Source: a virus
Virus record (IMG/VR): IMGVR_UViG_3300049846_000848
Location: 1-64,000 of that record
Length of the DNA: 64,000 bases
Reading direction: 5' to 3' (one strand)
In this document: positions 1-42,051 of the stretch, one piece after another
How the letters are laid out: every line of letters begins with the position of its first letter
Position numbering within the stretch: the stretch's first letter is position 1
Program-made: the position numbers and the translations under genes
The notes under the pieces: model-generated
What the model saw: only the letters and a program-made list of their open reading frames with translations
What the model was told of the DNA's origin: nothing
Databases searched by the model: none

Positions 1-44
1 CGGGCAATGAGCTAAGTGATTGAATATTGGCTATGGTTATAAAT

Positions 45-73
45 TTGTTTTTTGAGTTTTTAGCCGCTAGATT
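45..73 (+). promoter_or_regulatory. candidate sigma70-type promoter for structured RNA 1
   Basis: TTGTTT(45-50)-17 nt-TAGATT(68-73); predicted +1 near 80-82, where the closing stem of the 81-494 element begins. Confidence 0.45.
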
Positions 74-80
74 AACTTTT

Positions 81-494
81 TGGCTACCAAAGAGATGCGC
101 TAATTCCCTATATAGTTGATTCTTAAGATTTAGATTAGGAGTTATGATCAAGGTAGGGACTCTTAAGGCATTTATGGCTAAGGCTATCACCCAGGACTTA
201 CCTACTCCGGTCGGGAGTATTCCTACCCCTCTATGATGAGCTACTAAACCTGTTACTACGGCGTCTTGTTCTACGTAAGGCGTGCCCCCTAGGTTACGTT
301 TAAAACGCACCTTATGGTCTATAATCGAGTCTGGTGGGGGCTTACGATGATCGACTATGCGGCAGGGGGTGACTCTACTGATCTTAGTAGAGATCTCTTC
401 GGCTAGTCCGCTACCAAACTCACCCTTAGCGGTTATGGCATGGATACGTACAGGGTACTGGGCGTGCTTGGTGGCATCTCTGTCTAGGTAGCTA
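81..494 (+). ncRNA. candidate large structured ncRNA 1 (family unassigned)
   Basis: No ORF >=60 aa; ends pair (81-88/487-494, 91-98/474-481); internal helices 152-159/220-227, 203-208/214-219, 262-268/276-282, 284-289/336-341, 364-380/385-399, 408-413/427-432; G-U wobbles work on the + strand. Confidence 0.6.
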
Positions 495-576
495 TAAGCT
501 AGTCGTAACTTAGCTAGTAGGCTACGGTCTAGGTTCTTGATCTGCGATGTAGAATTGTTTACGTGGATCTCTACCA

Positions 577-960
577 TCAGACTACCACTACCTTGTTACC
601 ACAAGTATTCAATGCATCCATTAGCTCTGATTCTTTTAGAGATAGTTCTTTAAACTCAGTAAGCTCCTCTAATTCCAATGGTTTAGATATCTTAAACCTA
701 GACTTCTTAACCATCCCTATAGTTAAACCCAGTACTTTCCTATTAGAGAATAACTGTACGGCTTGATCACTGTTATACTCACGCACCATTCGGTCTATCG
801 ATTCTAGGTATGAATCCTTACCGTAAGGACTAAGTTCTCTATGTTTAGTAAACTCCCATAGAAGTAAAGACCTCTTACGAGCCATACGTAAGGTGTTCAT
901 ACGTGAACGTACCTTTCTCAGTTCTTGTTTAATGATTGATTGGACACTCTTAACCTGCAT
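577..960 (-). CDS. hypothetical basic protein (127 aa) lying between the two candidate ncRNAs
   Basis: ORF with AGGAG RBS and its own promoter; Arg/Lys-rich N-terminus RKVRSRMNTLRMARKR. Confidence 0.7.
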   Translation of the reverse strand: MQVKSVQSIIKQELRKVRSRMNTLRMARKRSLLLWEFTKHRELSPYGKDSYLESIDRMVREYNSDQAVQLFSNRKVLGLTIGMVKKSRFKISKPLELEELTEFKELSLKESELMDALNTCGNKVVVV

Positions 961-977
961 ACAGATCTCCTGTCACT

Positions 978-1006
978 AGTGTAGCAGGGTAGATAGGCAG
1001 AGTCAA
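978..1006 (-). promoter_or_regulatory. sigma70-type promoter for ORF 577-960
   Basis: minus strand TTGACT-17 nt-TACACT. Confidence 0.7.
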
Positions 1007-1009
1007 TAG

Positions 1010-1429
1010 GTGATATTTAAGGCACTGTTACTGAAATTAGACCTGACATGGCCAGTCCCATAGTTCTTAGCCTCCGTATATAACTATTATAACTTCAGTT
1101 AAACAGTTACATGCGATTGAGCACTAAGTACGGGGTATCATGGTCATCACCCCTAGTTAGTTGCTTGGTTTTACCTCGTTATAGCCGTGCTAGGATTTAA
1201 CATTGGTTACGGAGGACCTAGCCTGAAGAACTACTACCAGAAAGACAGGTAGCTATAACAAAGCGTATATTCCTTGCAGCAGAATAGTTAACCTAGGTGT
1301 TACTCTCCGTTGGGACTGTGTAGCTGGACCTACTTGAAATAACCCTAATTATTTCATCTATTCCAGATACTTGGTAGCCGGCATAACACTGGTAGACTAA
1401 CCTCTTTGATACTCAATAAAGAATATCAC
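1010..1429 (-). ncRNA. candidate large pseudoknotted ncRNA 2 (family unassigned)
   Basis: No ORF >=60 aa; ends pair (1010-1017/1422-1429); helices 1033-1040/1397-1404, 1053-1060/1311-1318, 1061-1068/1226-1233, 1071-1078/1208-1215, 1174-1186/1251-1263, 1189-1194/1217-1222, 1335-1342/1349-1356; G-U wobbles work on the - strand; promoter +1 falls at the 5' end of the closing stem. Confidence 0.7.
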
Positions 1430-1434
1430 TAGTA

Positions 1435-1463
1435 ATCATACGATTAATTCAACGATATGTCAA
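1435..1463 (-). promoter_or_regulatory. promoter for ncRNA 2 (sigma70 consensus, also matches the late motif)
   Basis: minus strand TTGACA-17 nt-TATGAT; context CGTATGATTACTAG is one mismatch from the late motif CGTATAATTACTAG. Confidence 0.75.
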
Positions 1464-1489
1464 CTACTTAAACCCATAAATAATAACAC

Positions 1490-1518
1490 TTGACTGTACT
1501 AAATAAACATTATATACT
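1490..1518 (+). promoter_or_regulatory. sigma70-type promoter of the replication operon
   Basis: TTGACT-17 nt-TATACT; AGGAGGT RBS follows before ATG 1557. Confidence 0.8.
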
Positions 1519-1556
1519 GATCCTAGCCAAACTAAACCGAAGATAGGAGGTAACTA

Positions 1557-2129
1557 ATGGCTAATTATTCAAGAGTAAGTGACAAGAGTCTTTATTGCAA
1601 GATTGTGGCTAAGCCCACCAAACAAGGTGAAGTGAGTGAAGCTACCGGCTGGTATGTAGGTGGTACGCTACAGACCGGGGTTAAGTACAAGAACAAGCAA
1701 TTTACGTGCCATCTATTGCGGCCTAATGGTCAAGTCATCGGGGTTAACTTTACTCCAGGGGCTACTAAGCAGTACCTTAATGGACAACTAGCTCTATCTG
1801 AGTTGGTAGGTAAGTTCGTATCGATTAAAGCCGGAGAGACGGTTATGACTGAGCGAGGTCCTTTTACTCAGTTAGAGATCAGCGAGAAGCCAGCTCCAAG
1901 TGAGATGCCAGCTAATGACATCAAGATCTGTCATTTCGTAGACTTAGACGCAGTTAAGAGCGGACAAGGATTGCATAAGCGACCTACCGCAGCTAACGTG
2001 TCGGCTGAGGATATGGATGGACTAGCTGACGATGATGATGTATCGTCAAATCAAGCATTTACAGAAGCAGCTAGCAGCGTAGCTAGCAGCGCTAAGCCTC
2101 AATTTAATTCTAACCCATTTGCCGACTAG
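1557..2129 (+). CDS. probable single-stranded DNA-binding protein
   Basis: beta-rich N-terminus, acidic low-complexity tail ending in NPFAD, first gene of the replication module. Confidence 0.55.
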   Translation: MANYSRVSDKSLYCKIVAKPTKQGEVSEATGWYVGGTLQTGVKYKNKQFTCHLLRPNGQVIGVNFTPGATKQYLNGQLALSELVGKFVSIKAGETVMTERGPFTQLEISEKPAPSEMPANDIKICHFVDLDAVKSGQGLHKRPTAANVSAEDMDGLADDDDVSSNQAFTEAASSVASSAKPQFNSNPFAD

Positions 2130-2160
2130 AAGGTTCACCTCCTCCCCCTCTAGTTGACAT

Positions 2161-2187
2161 AAGAGCCCCCTTAACCGGGGGCTTTTT
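2161..2187 (+). terminator. intrinsic terminator
   Basis: AAGAGCCCCC-TTAACC-GGGGGCTTTTT. Confidence 0.8.
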
Positions 2188-2228
2188 CATTTTATGATTT
2201 CGTGATATTATATTTATAGGAGGTAGTC

Positions 2229-4202
2229 ATGCGCTATCGTTTGATCCCAGCTAAGTGGAAGAAGGAAGAGGCTAAGGCCCAAAGTAAGGTACCGCCCAAG
2301 ATCCTAGAAGGAGAGTTCAACAATAACTCCCTAAAGCTGTATAACCGCGAAGGGTATAATATATACTTCTTTCCTAATGATTCTAAGACTAATAACTCTA
2401 AGGATGGGTGGTTTAGTGGCGAGGATATAGACAACTTTAAGTGGGTGTTTATAGACATAGACTTAAAGGATAAGGTTTATGCATCTATCACTGAGGCCGT
2501 GGATAAGATAAAGTCTTTTGAGCTACCGGCTAACGTGATAAACATTACGGGCAATGGAGTGCATGCATTCTGGCGGTTAGAGGATCTAGATGCGTTCAAC
2601 TACGTAACACTACAACAAAAACTCATAATACACTTTAAGTCAGATCCCAGCATCTACACTGTACTACAACTAATGCGAGTGCCTGGGTACTACAATACTA
2701 AAGACCAATACAATCCTAAGTTAGTGGAAACTATCCAACAAGATATGACTAAACGCTACAAGGTTAGTGACTTCGGATTTCTACCGGAGTTAGACGCTCT
2801 ACATAAGAGCCTAGTAGAAACTCACCTAACCCCCGCAGCAGAACGAGTGAAGAGAATTGAACTAGCTAGCACCGAACTACCTAGTAGGTTTACTGAACTA
2901 CTAAATAGGTCGGAACAAGTTAAAGACTTATTCTTATGTAAGTTTGGAGAAGATAGGTCTAGCTCGCTATGGCGGCTATGTCACATGTTAGTAAAGATGA
3001 ACTACGAAAGAGAAGAGATATTGCGAGTAGCCATTAACACCGATAAGGGTAAAGAGAAGGGAGCTGACTGGGTACAGAAGTATATCATGGATGATCTATT
3101 CACTCATGACATAAGAGGTCAAAAGGTAAACTTCCAGTGGCGTACCTTGGAAGAGGTTAAGACTAAAGCCGCCACTACGGTCAACTCCACTGTATTTAAG
3201 ATACCTACCACCCAGCTATGTCCATTCGACTATGGCTACAGGCCAGGCGACGTACTGGGCCTAATAGGTGGCTCTGGGGCAGGAAAGTCTACTGTATGCC
3301 TCAATATCATTAGAGAAGTAGCTGAGGCTAATCCTGATTTCGTGCATGTTTATATCTCATTAGAGATGAGTGAAGAGGAGATCTACGATAAGGTACGAAA
3401 ACAAGTAGGGGCGACGGAAACTATCCTACCTAAGATCATAATCATATCTAACGAGAACGACGACGGTACTTATCGCAATCTATCCCTACAAGATATCAAC
3501 GATAGTCTAACCCAGATTAAGAACGTGACAGGTAAGGCTATCGGGGTAGTAGTGTTAGATAATATTAACATCATGGATAAAGGACTAAGATCTAAAGGCG
3601 GCAGAGAATCTTACGAGAATGCTAACTTAATGCAGATATGCAAGGACATTAAAGAAGTAGCCCGCACCCAAGAAGTGTTCTGGATTACTCAATCCCAGTC
3701 TAGCCGAGAAAAAGCCGGGGAAGGCGACCTACCGCTGTACCAAGATGCCGCGTATGGTACCAGCAAGTTTGAGAACTTCTGTACTTTCGTTATCACATTA
3801 TGGCAGCCATTAAAGAATCAATATGGAGCCATAGCCCAGGATGATACTATCTCTAATAGAAATCTAAGAGTTATAGCTTTAAGATACTGCAAGAATCGCT
3901 TCCAGAGTGTAAACGATAAAGCTTTAGTAGGTGAAATAGGTTTACTTAAATATGATTTAGTTACAGATAGGTTCTCTAAGATGGACGAAAGAGACATGAT
4001 CATATACCATAAATATGAAGTACTAGCTAAAGATATAAATAAGAAAAAGAAGTCAGAAAGGGATATGAATATAGCTAGTTTTACTATCCCTACGGCAGCA
4101 GGTAAAGAGGAGAGTGCTAAGTATGATACCATCCACAAGCTTAGGGCAGAAGTATTTTCAGATAATAACATCGAAGTCACAGCTAAGCCTACTAACCAGT
4201 GA
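2229..4202 (+). CDS. primase-helicase fusion (RepB/AEP-like primase plus SF4 DnaB-like helicase)
   Basis: FIDID, TGNGVHAFW and MRVPGYYN primase motifs; Walker A GGSGAGKS, YISLEMS, VVLDNI, TQSQ. Confidence 0.85.
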   Translation: MRYRLIPAKWKKEEAKAQSKVPPKILEGEFNNNSLKLYNREGYNIYFFPNDSKTNNSKDGWFSGEDIDNFKWVFIDIDLKDKVYASITEAVDKIKSFELPANVINITGNGVHAFWRLEDLDAFNYVTLQQKLIIHFKSDPSIYTVLQLMRVPGYYNTKDQYNPKLVETIQQDMTKRYKVSDFGFLPELDALHKSLVETHLTPAAERVKRIELASTELPSRFTELLNRSEQVKDLFLCKFGEDRSSSLWRLCHMLVKMNYEREEILRVAINTDKGKEKGADWVQKYIMDDLFTHDIRGQKVNFQWRTLEEVKTKAATTVNSTVFKIPTTQLCPFDYGYRPGDVLGLIGGSGAGKSTVCLNIIREVAEANPDFVHVYISLEMSEEEIYDKVRKQVGATETILPKIIIISNENDDGTYRNLSLQDINDSLTQIKNVTGKAIGVVVLDNINIMDKGLRSKGGRESYENANLMQICKDIKEVARTQEVFWITQSQSSREKAGEGDLPLYQDAAYGTSKFENFCTFVITLWQPLKNQYGAIAQDDTISNRNLRVIALRYCKNRFQSVNDKALVGEIGLLKYDLVTDRFSKMDERDMIIYHKYEVLAKDINKKKKSERDMNIASFTIPTAAGKEESAKYDTIHKLRAEVFSDNNIEVTAKPTNQ

Positions 4203-6210
4203 CCTAAAAGGTCGTGATGAATACATAGCTTACGACTTAGAGACTACTGGTCTTAATCCAAGGAAGGATAAGATCATAGGTATAGCCTTAGCTTATGGAG
4301 ATCTAAGTCATGTTAGATGCTATTATCTAGCTACTAGGGTATGGGATAAGGTACGTCAAGAGTTAGTTAATACCGAGATCTTAGAAGACATGCCTCAATT
4401 CTTAATTGATTATGTCAAGCCCTCTAAACTAATAACCCATAACGGAGTATTCGATGTTAACTTCACCTACCATGATTTTGAAGTAGAATTAGCCCAGTCA
4501 GTATATTCAGACACTCAGATGCAGCGTCATACTATAGATCCTACCTGCTCCACTAGATTCGCATTAAAAGAATTATCTAATAAGTATTGGCCCGGAGCTA
4601 GCCAAGAGCAGGCTGATTTAGCTGATTCAGTGGTAGCTAATGGTGGAATGTGGAAGGGTAAGCAAAAAGAGTTCTATAAAGCCAATTTAAAAATACTAAA
4701 ACATTATGCTTGCCAAGACGTATTCCTAACTCTAAATCTATTTCATTTACAAAATAAACAACTAGAAGAGATGCAGCTAACCGACTTGTTCTATAAAGAC
4801 GAAGTCATGCCACTATACCGAGAGTGCACTATTCCGATGAATCGCTATGGTCTTAAGATTGATATGGATAAACTGGCTAGGATTAGCCATGATATGCAAA
4901 ATACTATTAACAATATCACCAAAGAGATCTACGATGAATTAGGTGATATCTATCCTCCATTTGAAAAAAAGAAGAAACTAAACATAAATAGCAACATGCA
5001 TGTGGCTTGGCTATTATTCGCTCATTTTAAAGAGTTTCCAGAAGCTTTAACTGATGCCGGGGTAGAATTAGCTAAACGAATATCAGGCAAACGACCTTAC
5101 AATAAATCTGATATGTTGCAATTCTTATTAAGAGCTCGCGAGCAAGGGCACAACATATACAAGCTTGTATGCGTAGACGCAGATAATATAACTGAATACG
5201 CACCTAAATATAAATGGATAGATAACTTATTGAAATTAAAGAAAGAAGAGAAACTATACTCCTCCTACGTAGAATCAATAGGTGAGATGGCAGAGAATGG
5301 ATATATCTATCCACAATTCCTACAATTCGGTACCGTCACTGGTCGCTATAGTTCCTCTAAGCCTAATTGCCAGAATATCCCCCGCAAAGATGATAGGATT
5401 AAATCATTCATGATGGCTGACGAGGGTAAGTTGTTTATAGCAGCTGACCAGTCACAACTAGAACCTAGGGTACTAGCGCACTTAACTAAAGATCCTTTAA
5501 TGATTGCGGCTTTCCAGAACGGATTAGACTTCTATTCGGTTATTGGAATACAAGCTATGGGGCTAGACACTACTAAGTTTAGTGCCGATCCTAAGCTACC
5601 TAACTTCCTAAAAAACACCAAAGAAGGTGTAATGTATCGAGATACGGCTAAGGTCATCGCCCTAGCTACTGCCTATAATACCTCCAGTTTTCAAATGAAG
5701 CGCAGCCTAAAGAAGATGGCAGGACTGATTAGATCTATAGCTGAGACTCAAGAGATTATAACTAACTACCTAGATTCATTCCCCTCTATTCGTAACTACA
5801 TGGATAAGATGAAATCAGTAGCCATGAATAATGGAGTATGCTACAACATGTTCGGGCGTATAAGACAGATGCCAGTAGCACAGAGGCTAGCAGTTTTGGG
5901 CAAGACAGAGGATAACGACTATAACCTTAAAAGAGAGTTAAACGTCGCTTGTAATTACCCAATCCAATCAACCGCCTCGTCTATAATGAATAGATGCATG
6001 ATAGCCGTAGCCAAAGAGATACAATCCCATCCTGAATGGGGAGCTAGGATCGTGCTACAAGTCCACGATGCCCTGTACTTAGAGGCTAATGAGGAGTATG
6101 CTAAAGAAGTAGCTAATATGTTACAAGATAAGATGGAGAATACAATTAAGTTAAGATTACCATTAGAAGCAGTACCTAGCATTGGTAAGTACTTGAAAGA
6201 TTGTAAATAA
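4114..6210 (+). CDS. polA: family A DNA polymerase with 3'-5' exonuclease
   Basis: DLETTG, HNGVFD and YACQD exonuclease motifs; TGRYSSSKPNCQNIP, ADQSQLEPRVLAH, NYPIQSTA, QVHDA; start may be the ATG at 4123. Confidence 0.95.
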   Translation: MLSMIPSTSLGQKYFQIITSKSQLSLLTSDLKGRDEYIAYDLETTGLNPRKDKIIGIALAYGDLSHVRCYYLATRVWDKVRQELVNTEILEDMPQFLIDYVKPSKLITHNGVFDVNFTYHDFEVELAQSVYSDTQMQRHTIDPTCSTRFALKELSNKYWPGASQEQADLADSVVANGGMWKGKQKEFYKANLKILKHYACQDVFLTLNLFHLQNKQLEEMQLTDLFYKDEVMPLYRECTIPMNRYGLKIDMDKLARISHDMQNTINNITKEIYDELGDIYPPFEKKKKLNINSNMHVAWLLFAHFKEFPEALTDAGVELAKRISGKRPYNKSDMLQFLLRAREQGHNIYKLVCVDADNITEYAPKYKWIDNLLKLKKEEKLYSSYVESIGEMAENGYIYPQFLQFGTVTGRYSSSKPNCQNIPRKDDRIKSFMMADEGKLFIAADQSQLEPRVLAHLTKDPLMIAAFQNGLDFYSVIGIQAMGLDTTKFSADPKLPNFLKNTKEGVMYRDTAKVIALATAYNTSSFQMKRSLKKMAGLIRSIAETQEIITNYLDSFPSIRNYMDKMKSVAMNNGVCYNMFGRIRQMPVAQRLAVLGKTEDNDYNLKRELNVACNYPIQSTASSIMNRCMIAVAKEIQSHPEWGARIVLQVHDALYLEANEEYAKEVANMLQDKMENTIKLRLPLEAVPSIGKYLKDCK

Positions 6211-14583: not shown

Positions 14584-14593
14584 CGTATAATTA
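14584..14593 (+). promoter_or_regulatory. late-promoter motif copy
   Basis: CGTATAATTA. Confidence 0.6.
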
Positions 14594-40169: not shown

Positions 40170-40559
40170 ATGGGCAAGACCCGCCGCTCCTCTCGTGATC
40201 TAGATGACCTAAAAGCTTTAAAAGAGAAGAACTCGCGTCTCAACCAAGAGAACCGCCAACTTAGACGTGAAATCAGTAACTTACGAAAACAACTATCCCA
40301 ACTAGACATAGACCGCCGATATGATGTACAAGATCTAATCCTAGCTCATGACCAAGAACTATCTGAGCGTCAGTCACATAAGGCCCTAATAGCTAAATGG
40401 TCATGTCACCAATGCGGTAGAGGAACTTTAATCCTACATATACTAAACATACCTGGAGGCTCCCGCTACTACCGTCACTGTAACCTATGTCCGCATCGAA
40501 CACCCCTACAACCATATACAAAAGATGTTGAAGGAGTGTTAGAGTCTGATCTAAGATAA
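40170..40559 (+). CDS. coiled-coil plus zinc-ribbon protein
   Basis: track ORF 40101-40559; ATG 40170 follows AAGGA; CHQC...CNLC. Confidence 0.65.
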   Translation: MGKTRRSSRDLDDLKALKEKNSRLNQENRQLRREISNLRKQLSQLDIDRRYDVQDLILAHDQELSERQSHKALIAKWSCHQCGRGTLILHILNIPGGSRYYRHCNLCPHRTPLQPYTKDVEGVLESDLR

Positions 40560-40563
40560 TAAA

Positions 40564-40614
40564 CTTTACTAATCAGTAAAGAAGTTAAGGCCTTAAAATT
40601 TACTATTAGTAAAG
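40564..40614. repeat. 51-bp AT-rich imperfect palindrome
   Basis: CTTTACTAAT...TTAAGGCCTTAA...ATTAGTAAAG, with two TTTACT-N3/4-AGTAAA sub-palindromes. Confidence 0.7.
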
Positions 40615-40692
40615 AATGACTCTAACTACTTGAAATCACATTCATTATTTAGACTTAACTTTTAGCTTGTCTTATGGATATTTTCTGATAAT

Positions 40693-41520: not shown

Positions 41521-41522
41521 TT

Positions 41523-41630
41523 ATGAACGAGTTAATTGAGTATGCCACTTTGATAGTAATATTCTTTATATTACCAGCGGCTATAGGCTATGCCATAGAA
41601 TACCGCGAAGAACCACCTAAGGACATATAA
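41523..41630 (+). CDS. 35-aa membrane microprotein
   Basis: GGAGGT RBS; MNELIEYATLIVIFFILPAAIGYAIEYREEPPKDI. Confidence 0.6.
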   Translation: MNELIEYATLIVIFFILPAAIGYAIEYREEPPKDI

Positions 41631-41633
41631 CTT

Positions 41634-41741
41634 ATGACTCTAACTGATTTCACGATATTGTATTTTGCACTGACTATGGCTATAGGATTCGTCTTATGGT
41701 CTATAGTCCAGTCGGGAGATAGCCCGGATGATTGGGATTAA
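41634..41741 (+). CDS. 35-aa membrane microprotein
   Basis: MTLTDFTILYFALTMAIGFVLWSIVQSGDSPDDWD. Confidence 0.55.
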   Translation: MTLTDFTILYFALTMAIGFVLWSIVQSGDSPDDWD

Positions 41742-41744
41742 GGC

Positions 41745-41894
41745 ATGAACCAGTTAGAAGCTTTAACCATAGGAATCACCGCATTAGGGGCTATCGCTTG
41801 TGGTATGGGGTTGACTATGGCTGAGCCTATGGTTATGCTAGGGTTAGCGATGGTATCGTTATGGGTCATTATAGAGGTTATAATAGCGTTATAA
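41745..41894 (+). CDS. 49-aa membrane microprotein
   Basis: MNQLEALTIGITALGAIACGMGLTMAEPMVMLGLAMVSLWVIIEVIIAL. Confidence 0.55.
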   Translation: MNQLEALTIGITALGAIACGMGLTMAEPMVMLGLAMVSLWVIIEVIIAL

Positions 41895-41907
41895 AGGAAG
41901 ATGCCAC

Positions 41908-42051
41908 ATGAAAGCTAAACTACTAAGAACCACCAAAGACATAGCCCTATTGACTGGATCAGCTATAGCTATGGTAGGGCTACTATACGTAGCATTTGAA
42001 CATCCAGTAGAGGCTATCTTAGCCATAGCTTTAATAGCGGGGGGATTATGA
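41908..42051 (+). CDS. 47-aa membrane microprotein
   Basis: MKAKLLRTTKDIALLTGSAIAMVGLLYVAFEHPVEAILAIALIAGGL; stop overlaps the next ATG (ATGA). Confidence 0.55.
   Translation: MKAKLLRTTKDIALLTGSAIAMVGLLYVAFEHPVEAILAIALIAGGL

What the first reader, a model, noticed from the sequence alone, without database searches (positions are those of the whole stretch)
1010..1429. Candidate 420-nt multi-pseudoknot ncRNA 2 (- strand) with its own consensus promoter
Seen: TTGACA-17-TATGAT on the minus strand places +1 at about 1429-1430, and the first 8 nt (GUGAUAUU) pair perfectly with the last 8 nt (AAUAUCAC, 1010-1017). A 26-nt segment near the 3' end (1053-1078) has three consecutive perfect 8-bp complements at three distant sites: 1311-1318, 1226-1233 and 1208-1215. 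Two of those sites lie inside the 13-bp helix 1174-1186/1251-1263, which implies pseudoknots or alternative folds. Further helices are 1033-1040/1397-1404, 1189-1194/1217-1222, 1335-1342/1349-1356 and 1132-1153. G-U wobbles occur only in the minus-strand reading. Inference: an ornate, ribozyme-like or scaffold RNA that does not match tmRNA, RNase P or intron consensus by eye.
Basis: partly seen in the sequence, partly recalled or inferred. Interest (0 to 1): 0.88.

Follow-up and report, generated by a model that had tools for sequence, protein, structure and literature searches.

The report
Untranslated control region of a phage
The stretch is the largest gene-free gap of an uncultured freshwater phage, sitting between its outward-facing replication genes and probably transcribed from a strong promoter, but the proposed elaborate ribozyme-like RNA fold is not supported, and a replication-origin or leader role is more likely.

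Summary
I found a fourth 8-bp complement, 1081-1088/1283-1290. The stretch lies in a truly non-coding 596-nt gap (961-1556), the largest in an 81,256-bp phage genome. The gap separates a leftward operon (127-aa ORF, then helicase) from a rightward operon (190-aa protein, primase-helicase, PolA).

The leftward promoter is credible. It matches 11 of 12 consensus positions, and its -10 region matches 9 of 10 positions of the phage's own late-promoter motif.

The ornate fold is not supported:
- No Rfam family matches.
- Fold energy is only moderately unusual (z -2.4; 6 of 203 genome windows fold at least as well).
- G-U-containing stems are not enriched.
- A four-arm "hub" occurs by chance in about a third of shuffled genomes.
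- No terminator ends the RNA.
- No homologous DNA could be reached, so covariation is untested.

The anatomy closely parallels the experimentally defined lactococcal phage c2 origin: an ORF-free stretch between two tandem leftward promoters at the point where transcription diverges.

My best reading is an untranslated origin or leader transcript. Interest is modest.

The parts
961..1556 (.). Whole non-coding gap (596 nt) between the diverging leftward and rightward replication-gene operons. It is the largest ORF-free gap of the genome.
1435..1463 (-). Upstream leftward promoter P1: TTGACA, 17-nt spacer, TATGAT (11 of 12). The predicted start is near 1429.
   Evidence: Genome-wide only 3 sites reach 11 of 12.
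1433..1442 (-). The -10 region of P1 matches 9 of 10 positions of the phage's late-promoter 10-mer and is followed by the same CTAG. It is the only such copy on the minus strand.
1010..1429 (-). The 5' domain (1290-1429) and the 3' third show moderately stable local folds.
1053..1090 (-). Hub: four adjacent 8-nt segments, each perfectly complementary to a distant site. Read on the minus strand it carries GGAGG, a 9-nt spacer and AUG.
1208..1233 (-). Partner sites of hub segments 1071-1078 and 1061-1068. Together they form one imperfect inverted repeat of the hub, with a 2 x 10 nt internal loop, and include an anti-SD CCUCC.
1283..1318 (-). Partner sites 1283-1290 (pairs with 1081-1088) and 1311-1318 (pairs with 1053-1060).
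1017..1075 (-). GGAGG (1075-1071), AUG (1061-1059), and a 14-codon hydrophobic mini-ORF ending at a stop at 1019-1017. Speculative.
978..1006 (-). Second leftward promoter-like site P2: TTGACT, 17-nt spacer, TACACT, preceded by TG (9 of 12). It lies 18 nt before the start codon at 960.
1490..1518 (+). Rightward promoter TTGACT, 17-nt spacer, TATACT (10 of 12), 39 nt before the 190-aa gene.
577..960 (-). First leftward ORF: 127 aa, basic, no homologues. The public protein set holds only its last 45 residues. It is followed by a 462-aa ResIII/DEAD helicase (2-577, continuing across the record junction).
1557..2129 (+). First rightward gene: 190 aa with an acidic tail and no family. It is followed by the primase-helicase (2229-4202) and PolA (4114-6210).

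Best explanation
The stretch is the untranslated core of the phage's main non-coding control region, at the point where the two replication-gene operons diverge.

Inferred from consensus: a strong leftward promoter (1463-1435) is built to be read both early, through its sigma-70-type -35 and -10, and late, through its phage late-motif -10. It starts an RNA near 1429.

Shown: that RNA carries no gene for about 470 nt.

Shown by scan only: it meets no terminator. It therefore runs past a second, weaker promoter (1006-978) into the 127-aa ORF and the helicase gene.

Inferred by analogy only: the most likely job is that of the non-coding PE1 transcript of lactococcal phage c2 and of ColE1 RNA II (the latter recalled, not read). 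In those systems, transcription through an ORF-free stretch flanked by two tandem promoters activates or primes replication at the origin. The same RNA would also serve as a long leader.

Its local hairpins, and the long-range pairing that covers a GGAGG-AUG element, may tune this role. The "ornate multi-pseudoknot" architecture is not needed and is not supported.
For: Non-coding status.

Promoter: 11 of 12 consensus positions. It is one of only 3 such sites in 2 x 81 kb. Its -10 region matches the late motif at 9 of 10 positions plus CTAG, and it is the only minus-strand copy. The 11 exact plus-strand copies mostly lie a few tens of nt before start codons; one (22862) is inside a gene.

No convincing minus-strand terminator between 1429 and 960. 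The only hit is a 5-bp stem with a poor U tract. A textbook 10-bp terminator at 2161-2186 shows that the phage does use terminators.

Context: helicase on the left; an SSB-like candidate (my guess from its acidic tail), primase-helicase and PolA on the right. The gap is the largest in the genome. The cumulative GC-skew trough spans 81,001-1,538.

Anatomy matches the annotated c2 record. c2 has a 611-bp intergenic region holding the ori, tandem early promoters EP1 and EP2 361 nt apart (-10 to -10) on the strand of the early genes, and a diverging late promoter beyond EP1. Here the gap is 596 bp and the two promoters are 457 nt apart.

PMC7150918 (passages read) states that Ceduovirus oris are non-coding stretches flanked by PE1 and PE2. 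[quoted passage not shown]

Moderate structure on the transcribed strand: z -2.43 for the whole stretch. Only 6 of 203 genome windows fold at least as well for their G+C. Local z-scores are -2.5, -2.0 and -1.7 in three of six 140-nt windows.
Against: No transcript has been seen. The origin role rests on analogy and position alone.

There is no sequence similarity to c2 or to any phage record, and the phage is unrelated to c2.

No AT-rich unwinding stretch lies downstream of the promoter (AT of 75% or more only at 1406-1520). There are no iterons, no tandem repeats and no DnaA box.

The GC-skew trough coincides with the switch in gene orientation, so it is not independent evidence.

The c2 PE1 region itself shows no fold-energy signal (z -0.19), so structure neither defines nor supports the analogy.

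None of 76 distant relatives (primase-helicase 29-35% identical) has a comparable gap upstream of that gene. The largest is 334 nt, between co-directional genes. The feature is therefore not conserved in the wider group.

A GGAGG-AUG with a 14-codon frame sits inside the "non-coding" RNA, whereas c2 oris are described as lacking ribosome-binding sites.

P2 matches only 9 of 12 positions and would give an mRNA leader of about 10 nt.
Confidence: 0.45

Rival explanations
1. A stand-alone, large structured non-coding RNA of about 390-420 nt. It would be released by processing or weak termination near 1010-1040 and would fold around a 3' hub that pairs with three or four distant segments. It would act in trans as a scaffold, decoy or catalyst.
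For: It has its own strong promoter with a dual early and late character, which suggests expression throughout infection.

Perfect 8-bp complements are enriched locally: 7 against 1.5, and 1 of 2000 shuffles reaches that.

The end helix and hub helices A, B and C have ensemble probabilities of 0.37, 0.32, 0.25 and 0.19.

The minus-strand fold has z -2.43 and ranks in the top 3% of genome windows.

Large ornate RNAs are known from phages (PMC12286853, passages read).
Against: No Rfam family matches, even at E up to 10.

There is no terminator at the proposed 3' end.

The hub is expected by chance in 33% of shuffled genomes, and a second one lies inside a gene.

The excess of stems is confined to exactly 8 bp and vanishes at 7 bp or more. 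G-U-tolerant stems are not enriched. The strand preference is not significant.

The MFE fold omits the three long-range helices.

There are no tRNAs nearby.

Helix-spotting by eye therefore yields false positives in this genome.
Confidence: 0.15
2. A purely cis-acting translational or attenuation leader. The upstream segments 1208-1233 and 1311-1318 act as anti-SD and anti-start sequences. They sequester the GGAGG-AUG of a 14-codon leader ORF (1075-1017) and thereby set expression of the downstream 127-aa and helicase genes. This is loosely comparable to phage P1, where the c4 antisense RNA, made from the same operon, blocks icd/ant expression.
For: The hub is exactly GGAGG, 9 nt, then AUG. 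Helix C pairs the GGAGG with CCUCC.

On the minus strand there are 5 GGAGG-plus-ATG sites in the genome. Two of them are real genes, so such sites are rare.

There is no terminator before the next gene.

P1 c4 is an antisense RNA encoded in the operon it represses (PMC8198154, passages read).

5'-UTR-derived regulatory RNAs are common in virulent phages (PMC10914365, passages read).
Against: Two of the three other tiny-ORF GGAGG-ATG hits lie antisense to genes, so they are chance hits.

The 9-nt spacing is atypical for this phage, where most real genes have 5-6 nt.

The mini-ORF ends 57 nt before the next start codon, so translational coupling is not obvious.

The local fold around the downstream SD is not stable (z +1.4).

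There is no Rfam match to the C4 family or to any leader or riboswitch.
Confidence: 0.2
3. A spacer with no RNA-level function: two back-to-back promoters plus decayed or filler DNA. The helices are chance matches picked out by searching for 8-mers.
For: All seven stems are exactly at the search threshold of 8 bp, with none longer.

The hub frequency is compatible with chance genome-wide.

There are no homologues of the region anywhere searched.

The gap is not conserved in 76 distant relatives.
Against: A compact phage genome keeps its largest gap here.

A promoter matching 11 of 12 positions plus the late motif points into the gap.

The local excess of 8-bp complements is real relative to shuffles, and the window is among the top ~1% of genome windows.

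With 8 stems of 7 bp or more, chance would make about three quarters of them exactly 7 bp. Here 7 of 8 are 8 bp.
Confidence: 0.2

Closest known systems
Origin region of Lactococcus phage c2 and other Ceduovirus phages, with its non-coding PE1 transcript (PE1-T)
   Same: Both have a gap of about 600 bp at the divergence of two transcription blocks (611 bp in c2, 596 bp here). In both, the ORF-free stretch is flanked by two tandem promoters pointing toward the same gene block, with a diverging promoter just beyond the upstream one, and the upstream promoter makes an untranslated RNA.
   Different: There is no sequence similarity and the phages are unrelated. c2 is 22 kb and replicates its ori plasmids with host proteins only. 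This phage is 81 kb and encodes its own helicases, primase and PolA.

Here the gap separates two replication operons rather than early and late blocks. The tandem promoters are 457 nt apart, against 361 nt in c2. A GGAGG-AUG element lies inside the RNA.

Origin activity and the transcript are untested here.
ColE1 RNA II pre-primer
   Same: A promoter fires a several-hundred-nt untranslated, folded RNA toward or through an origin, and the RNA's fold decides whether it can prime.
   Different: No RNA I-type antisense partner, no G-rich R-loop segment and no origin site have been identified here. No Rfam match.
GOLLD and ROOL, the large ornate RNAs of phages and prophages
   Same: They are phage-encoded, several hundred nt long, non-coding and of unknown function (PMC12286853).
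   Different: Those families are defined by extensive covariation and are often found next to tRNA islands. Here no covariance model matches, the window has 0 tRNA genes, the candidate is shorter (420 nt), and its structure is statistically weak.
Phage 5'-UTR-derived non-coding RNAs and long leaders, for example the 29 candidates found by ONT-cappable-seq in Pseudomonas phages (PMC10914365)
   Same: The RNA starts at a gene's promoter and occupies the 5' untranslated region, with a possible regulatory role.
   Different: Those RNAs are mostly under 250 nt and are generated by premature termination at a defined terminator. Here the untranslated stretch is about 470 nt and no terminator is seen.
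P1/P7 c4 antisense RNA in the immI operon
   Same: An RNA segment encoded in the same transcript as its target, with complementary segments upstream of a ribosome-binding site (PMC8198154; mechanistic details recalled).
   Different: No match to the Rfam C4 model. No evidence of processing. The target here would be a 14-codon ORF of doubtful reality.

Membership tests
Any described RNA family (Rfam 15: 4227 models, including GOLLD, ROOL, OLE, tmRNA, RNase P, introns, C4, riboswitches, leaders) | Covariance-model score at or above the family's gathering threshold | tested here: not met
   There are 0 matches in the whole window at gathering thresholds. In 900-1600 at E up to 10 there are only two chance-level hits (17.5 and 13.8 bits against gathering scores of 49 and 34), both at 958-989 and so outside the candidate.
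Large ornate phage RNAs (GOLLD/ROOL kind) | Extensive secondary structure supported by covariation among homologues | not testable with these tools
   No homologous DNA could be fetched.
Large ornate phage RNAs (GOLLD/ROOL kind) | Frequent placement next to tRNA islands (typical, not strictly defining; PMC12286853) | tested here: not met
   ARAGORN finds 0 tRNA or tmRNA genes in the 64-kb window.
Stand-alone bacterial or phage ncRNA gene | Own promoter | tested here: met
   A sigma-70-type site matching 11 of 12 positions at 1463-1435, with a late-motif-like -10. This is a consensus match only; no transcript data exist.
Stand-alone bacterial or phage ncRNA gene | Own 3' end (intrinsic terminator or defined processing site) before the next gene | tested here: not met
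   The only minus-strand hit is a 5-bp stem with 3 G-C pairs at 1055-1043 and a weak U tract. Processing cannot be tested.
Ceduovirus (c2-type) transcription-mediated origin | Non-coding region between two divergently transcribed gene blocks | tested here: met
.
Ceduovirus (c2-type) transcription-mediated origin | ORF-free stretch flanked by the first two tandem promoters of one block | tested here: met
   P1 at 1463-1435 and P2 at 1006-978, both on the minus strand, compared with EP1 and EP2 in c2. P2 matches only 9 of 12 positions.
Ceduovirus (c2-type) transcription-mediated origin | No ORF of 100 bp or more and no ribosome-binding site downstream of the first promoter (PMC7150918) | tested here: inconclusive
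   There is no start-codon ORF of 30 aa or more. The longest open frame is 39 codons. However, a GGAGG, 9 nt, then ATG opens a 14-codon frame at 1075-1017.
Ceduovirus (c2-type) transcription-mediated origin | Sequence belongs to one of the c2, bIL67 or 923 ori types | tested here: not met
   blastn of 900-1600 against 50,697 phage records, a collection that holds c2, gave no match. This is a functional analogy, not membership.
Ceduovirus (c2-type) transcription-mediated origin | The fragment supports autonomous replication and a non-coding transcript is made | not testable with these tools
   This needs a host and wet-lab work.
Iteron or DnaA-box type origin | Direct repeats (iterons), DnaA boxes, and an AT-rich unwinding element | tested here: not met
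   Direct repeats are no longer than 10 nt and occur in two copies only. There are no tandem repeats. No DnaA-box consensus is found with up to 1 mismatch. AT of 75% or more occurs only over the promoters at 1406-1520.
Lambda-type N/nut antitermination leader | A boxA-like element in the leader upstream of a small basic first gene | tested here: not met
   The best matches to two recalled boxA consensus motifs have 4 of 12 and 2 of 8 mismatches, which is chance level. The 127-aa ORF has no homologues, and its model is a low-confidence all-helical one.

The most novel reading that the evidence does not exclude
The stretch encodes a new class of large phage RNA, about 420 nt, made throughout infection from a promoter that combines host-type and phage-late-type signals. 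In this reading, a 38-nt 3' hub staples together four distant segments, giving alternative or pseudoknotted folds. The RNA would act either as the replication-origin primer or switch of a phage with its own replisome, or as a trans-acting scaffold. It has no relative in Rfam.
Probability: 0.1. Interest if true: 0.7.

Novelty: new member of a known kind. Interest (0 to 1): 0.3.

Why it matters
If the c2-like reading is right, this uncultured freshwater phage marks its replication origin with an untranslated transcript, even though it carries a full replisome of its own. That would extend transcription-primed or transcription-activated origins beyond the small lactococcal phages and ColE1-type plasmids. 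It would also give a concrete origin candidate for an orphan phage lineage.

The hybrid promoter is a small but testable clue to how this phage hands transcription from host sigma to its late programme. It combines a perfect -35 with the phage's late-type -10.

If the stretch is only a long leader or a spacer, the finding is ordinary. The main lesson would then be methodological: runs of threshold-length helices found by eye do not by themselves indicate an ornate RNA.

Tried and rejected
Homologue hunt, none usable:
- blastn of the region against phages and plasmids found nothing. The own genome holds only the region itself.
- The search for related loci with the 190-aa, 127-aa and primase-helicase proteins, with P0004, and with alignments A1 and A3, in viral, metagenome and genome contigs, found no relative.
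- Alignment A2 gave 76 distant loci. Of these, 0 of 76 carry the 190-aa or 127-aa protein and none has nucleotide similarity. None has a comparable gap.
- A 16-nt late-promoter pattern gave 11 single, unrelated hits.
- Earlier findings of the scan held no look-alikes.

Expression: the look-up of sequencing runs listed 13 DNA runs and no RNA holder. This says nothing about expression.

Read laying on X2, X4, X5 and X8 gave only short pieces that were identical or nearly so. Within 1010-1429 only 1101-1265 (X2) was covered, with no differences. Nothing usable for covariation came out. The two differences seen were 664 C>T, which I worked out by hand to be synonymous in the 127-aa frame, and 979 G>A.

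Coding alternatives were rejected. There is no ORF, all six frames score negative, and I had no reason to invoke another genetic code because neighbouring genes read well in table 11.

Protein leads led nowhere. The 127-aa ORF has no family, no homologue, and only its own 45-aa C-terminal piece in the representative library. Its atlas scores were 0.77, below the level of a lead. Its AlphaFold model has pLDDT 63, is all-helical, and was not searched further. The 190-aa protein gave only weak atlas leads.

Other tests with negative results:
- The DnaA-box, iteron and tandem-repeat origin model.
- The lambda nut/boxA idea.
- k-mer enrichment: the best 5-mers reach p of about 0.002 before correction for 512 tests.
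- The c2 PE1 region folded for comparison has z -0.19 and +0.06, so fold energy does not characterise that class.

No supplementary files of papers were consulted.

Full report
**Where the stretch lies.** The window is the first 64 kb of an 81,383-bp IMG/VR virus record. The record ends in a 127-bp direct repeat. A 462-aa helicase ORF runs across the junction, so the repeat marks a circular or permuted assembly and not a physical end.

Genes run almost entirely rightward from 1557 to about 77.9 kb. A short leftward block ends with the helicase (ResIII/DEAD) and a 127-aa ORF at 577-960. To the right come a 190-aa protein of no family (1557-2129), a primase-helicase (2229-4202) and a family-A DNA polymerase. 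The finding therefore sits in the 596-nt gap (961-1556) where the two replication operons diverge. This is the largest ORF-free gap of the genome.

**Checking the observation.** Every element is present:
- The minus-strand TTGACA-17-TATGAT promoter at 1463-1435.
- The end-to-end 8-bp pairing, the three consecutive 8-bp complements of 1053-1078, and the 1335-1356 hairpin.
- The 13-pair helix 1174-1186/1251-1263, which has 3 G-U pairs in the minus-strand reading, and the two smaller helices.

I found a fourth hub complement, 1081-1088/1283-1290. The stretch is genuinely non-coding: no ORF of 30 aa or more, longest open frame 39 codons, and negative codon-usage scores in all six frames.

**Is it more than chance?** Locally, yes for one measure. 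There are seven perfect stems of 8 bp or more against 1.5 +/- 1.2 in shuffles, reached by 1 of 2000 shuffles, and only 10 of 810 genome windows have six or more.

The signal is narrow, though. All seven stems are exactly 8 bp. There is a deficit at 7 bp and nothing longer, and stems of 7 bp or more number 8 against 5.9 expected (97 of 400 shuffles reach that).

Other measures do not stand out:
- A 40-nt segment with four such arms occurs twice in the genome, once inside a gene, and in a third of 60 shuffled genomes.
- Stems that allow G-U are not enriched on either strand.
- The 10.5 kcal/mol advantage of the minus strand is matched in 21% of genome windows.

The "G-U only on the minus strand" argument therefore carries little weight.

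**Fold energy.**
- Whole stretch: -119.8 kcal/mol, z -2.43 on the minus strand and -1.69 on the plus strand.
- Against 203 genome windows corrected for G+C, 6 fold at least as well on the minus strand and 40 on the plus strand.
- Three of six 140-nt minus-strand windows have z of -2.5, -2.0 and -1.7; the other three are near or above zero.
- The MFE fold uses none of the three long-range hub helices. Their ensemble probabilities are 0.19-0.32. Forcing them together with the end helix costs 5.3 kcal/mol.

The "pseudoknots" are inferred from helices that exclude one another. In summary, there is some structure, chiefly a 5' domain and hairpins, but no evidence for an ornate architecture.

Only three sites in both strands of the genome reach 11 of 12 consensus positions. 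A blastn of the gap against the genome picked up the phage's late-promoter copies. Inspection shows that the -10 of this promoter is embedded in a 9-of-10 match to the late 10-mer, followed by the same CTAG. It is the only such copy on the minus strand. The 11 exact copies are all on the plus strand, and most lie a few tens of nt before start codons.

The promoter thus combines a perfect host-type -35 with a late-type -10. Its distance to the next leftward start codon is 475 nt, which is anomalous.

**Where the RNA would end.** The scan finds no credible minus-strand terminator between 1429 and 960. A textbook terminator follows the 190-aa gene. A second, weaker promoter-like site (1006-978, 9 of 12, with TG) lies 18 nt before the 127-aa ORF. 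The RNA therefore most likely reads through into the leftward operon.

**What lies inside.** Read on the minus strand, the hub is GGAGG, 9 nt, then AUG, opening a 14-codon hydrophobic frame. Helix C pairs the GGAGG with CCUCC. GGAGG-plus-ATG occurs five times on the minus strand. Two of those are real genes and two are chance hits antisense to genes. The 9-nt spacing is atypical for this phage. I treat this as a lead only.

**Known families.** No Rfam model matches and there are no tRNAs in the window. There are no tandem repeats, iterons or DnaA boxes, and no boxA.

**Relatives.** The phage is an orphan. No DNA match was found. The only close protein relatives are P0002 (66% identical, on a 1.9-kb Logan contig) and P0004 (66% identical, on an 82.5-kb NCBI contig). 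Their DNA could not be fetched.

Seventy-six distant relatives lack the neighbouring genes and lack a comparable gap. Public runs hold the same phage nearly unchanged in freshwater and sediment metagenomes from several studies. They gave no variation within the stretch. Covariation therefore remains untested.

**Best analogy.** The annotated record of lactococcal phage c2 shows the following:
- a 611-bp intergenic region that holds the origin;
- two tandem early promoters, EP1 and EP2, 361 nt apart, on the strand of the early genes;
- a diverging late promoter just beyond EP1.

PMC7150918 (passages read) describes Ceduovirus origins as non-coding stretches flanked by PE1 and PE2. It says PE1 produces a non-coding transcript thought to initiate replication through transcription, and that the transcript's length and sequence or structure matter.

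The present gap has the same layout: 596 bp, tandem promoters 457 nt apart, and a diverging promoter just beyond the upstream one. It also sits among replication genes, and the GC-skew trough falls there, although that trough is confounded with gene orientation.

This is an analogy, not membership. There is no sequence similarity, and the c2 region shows no fold-energy signal.

**Verdict.** The non-coding status and the promoter are well supported. The ornate ribozyme-like interpretation is not supported.

My estimates:
- 0.45: the untranslated transcript of a control or origin region, c2-like, which doubles as a long leader.
- 0.20: a translational leader switch.
- 0.15: a stand-alone structured ncRNA.
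- 0.20: a functionless spacer.

The finding is a new, orphan example of a known kind of element. Interest is modest unless transcript mapping or the relatives' sequences reveal a discrete, conserved RNA.

Noticed in passing
window 1433-1442 (minus); plus-strand copies at 14584, 19371, 22862, 25965, 29840, 30198, 55800, 57318, 63160 in the window, and at 67156 and 78728 in the rest of the genome: The late-promoter 10-mer has 11 exact copies, all on the plus strand. The leftward promoter of the gap carries a 9-of-10 copy combined with a perfect -35. This suggests a promoter read both early and late.
   Followed up: partly
window 2-577, continuing at genome 80445-81256: The record's 127-bp terminal repeat is crossed by a 462-aa ResIII/DEAD helicase ORF. 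The record start is therefore arbitrary and the assembly is circular or permuted.
   Followed up: yes
   Followed up: partly
window 577-960 (minus): The public protein sets hold only the last 45 residues of the 127-aa ORF (P0081). The first 82 codons have a weak codon-usage score of 0.129. True genes average 0.27 and antisense ORFs 0.08. The start at 960 has a GGAG 6 nt upstream, but the real start is uncertain.
   Followed up: partly
window 1017-1075 (minus): A GGAGG, 9 nt, then ATG opens a 14-codon hydrophobic mini-ORF inside the "non-coding" RNA. Its ribosome-binding site is the segment with the long-range complements.
   Followed up: partly
genome 64424-64463 (just beyond the window's end, inside the 63191-65281 gene): This is the only other 40-nt segment of the genome with four perfect 8-bp complements to sites within 420 nt. 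It lies in coding sequence.
   Followed up: no
window 40310-40692 and 41521-42047: Two further ORF-poor gaps fall in windows rich in 8-bp inverted repeats: 6-7 per 420 nt at 40401-40501 and 41701-41801. I did not examine what they hold.
   Followed up: no
window 1557-2129: The 190-aa protein ends in an acidic tail and sits before the primase-helicase. My guess, not tested, is a T7 gp2.5-like single-strand-binding protein. Its only relative is P0002 at 66% identity.
   Followed up: no
window 1-2600 in public runs X2, X5, X8: Pieces of this phage that are identical or nearly so occur in freshwater and sediment metagenomes from three different studies. This suggests a widespread, little-varying population.
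   Followed up: partly
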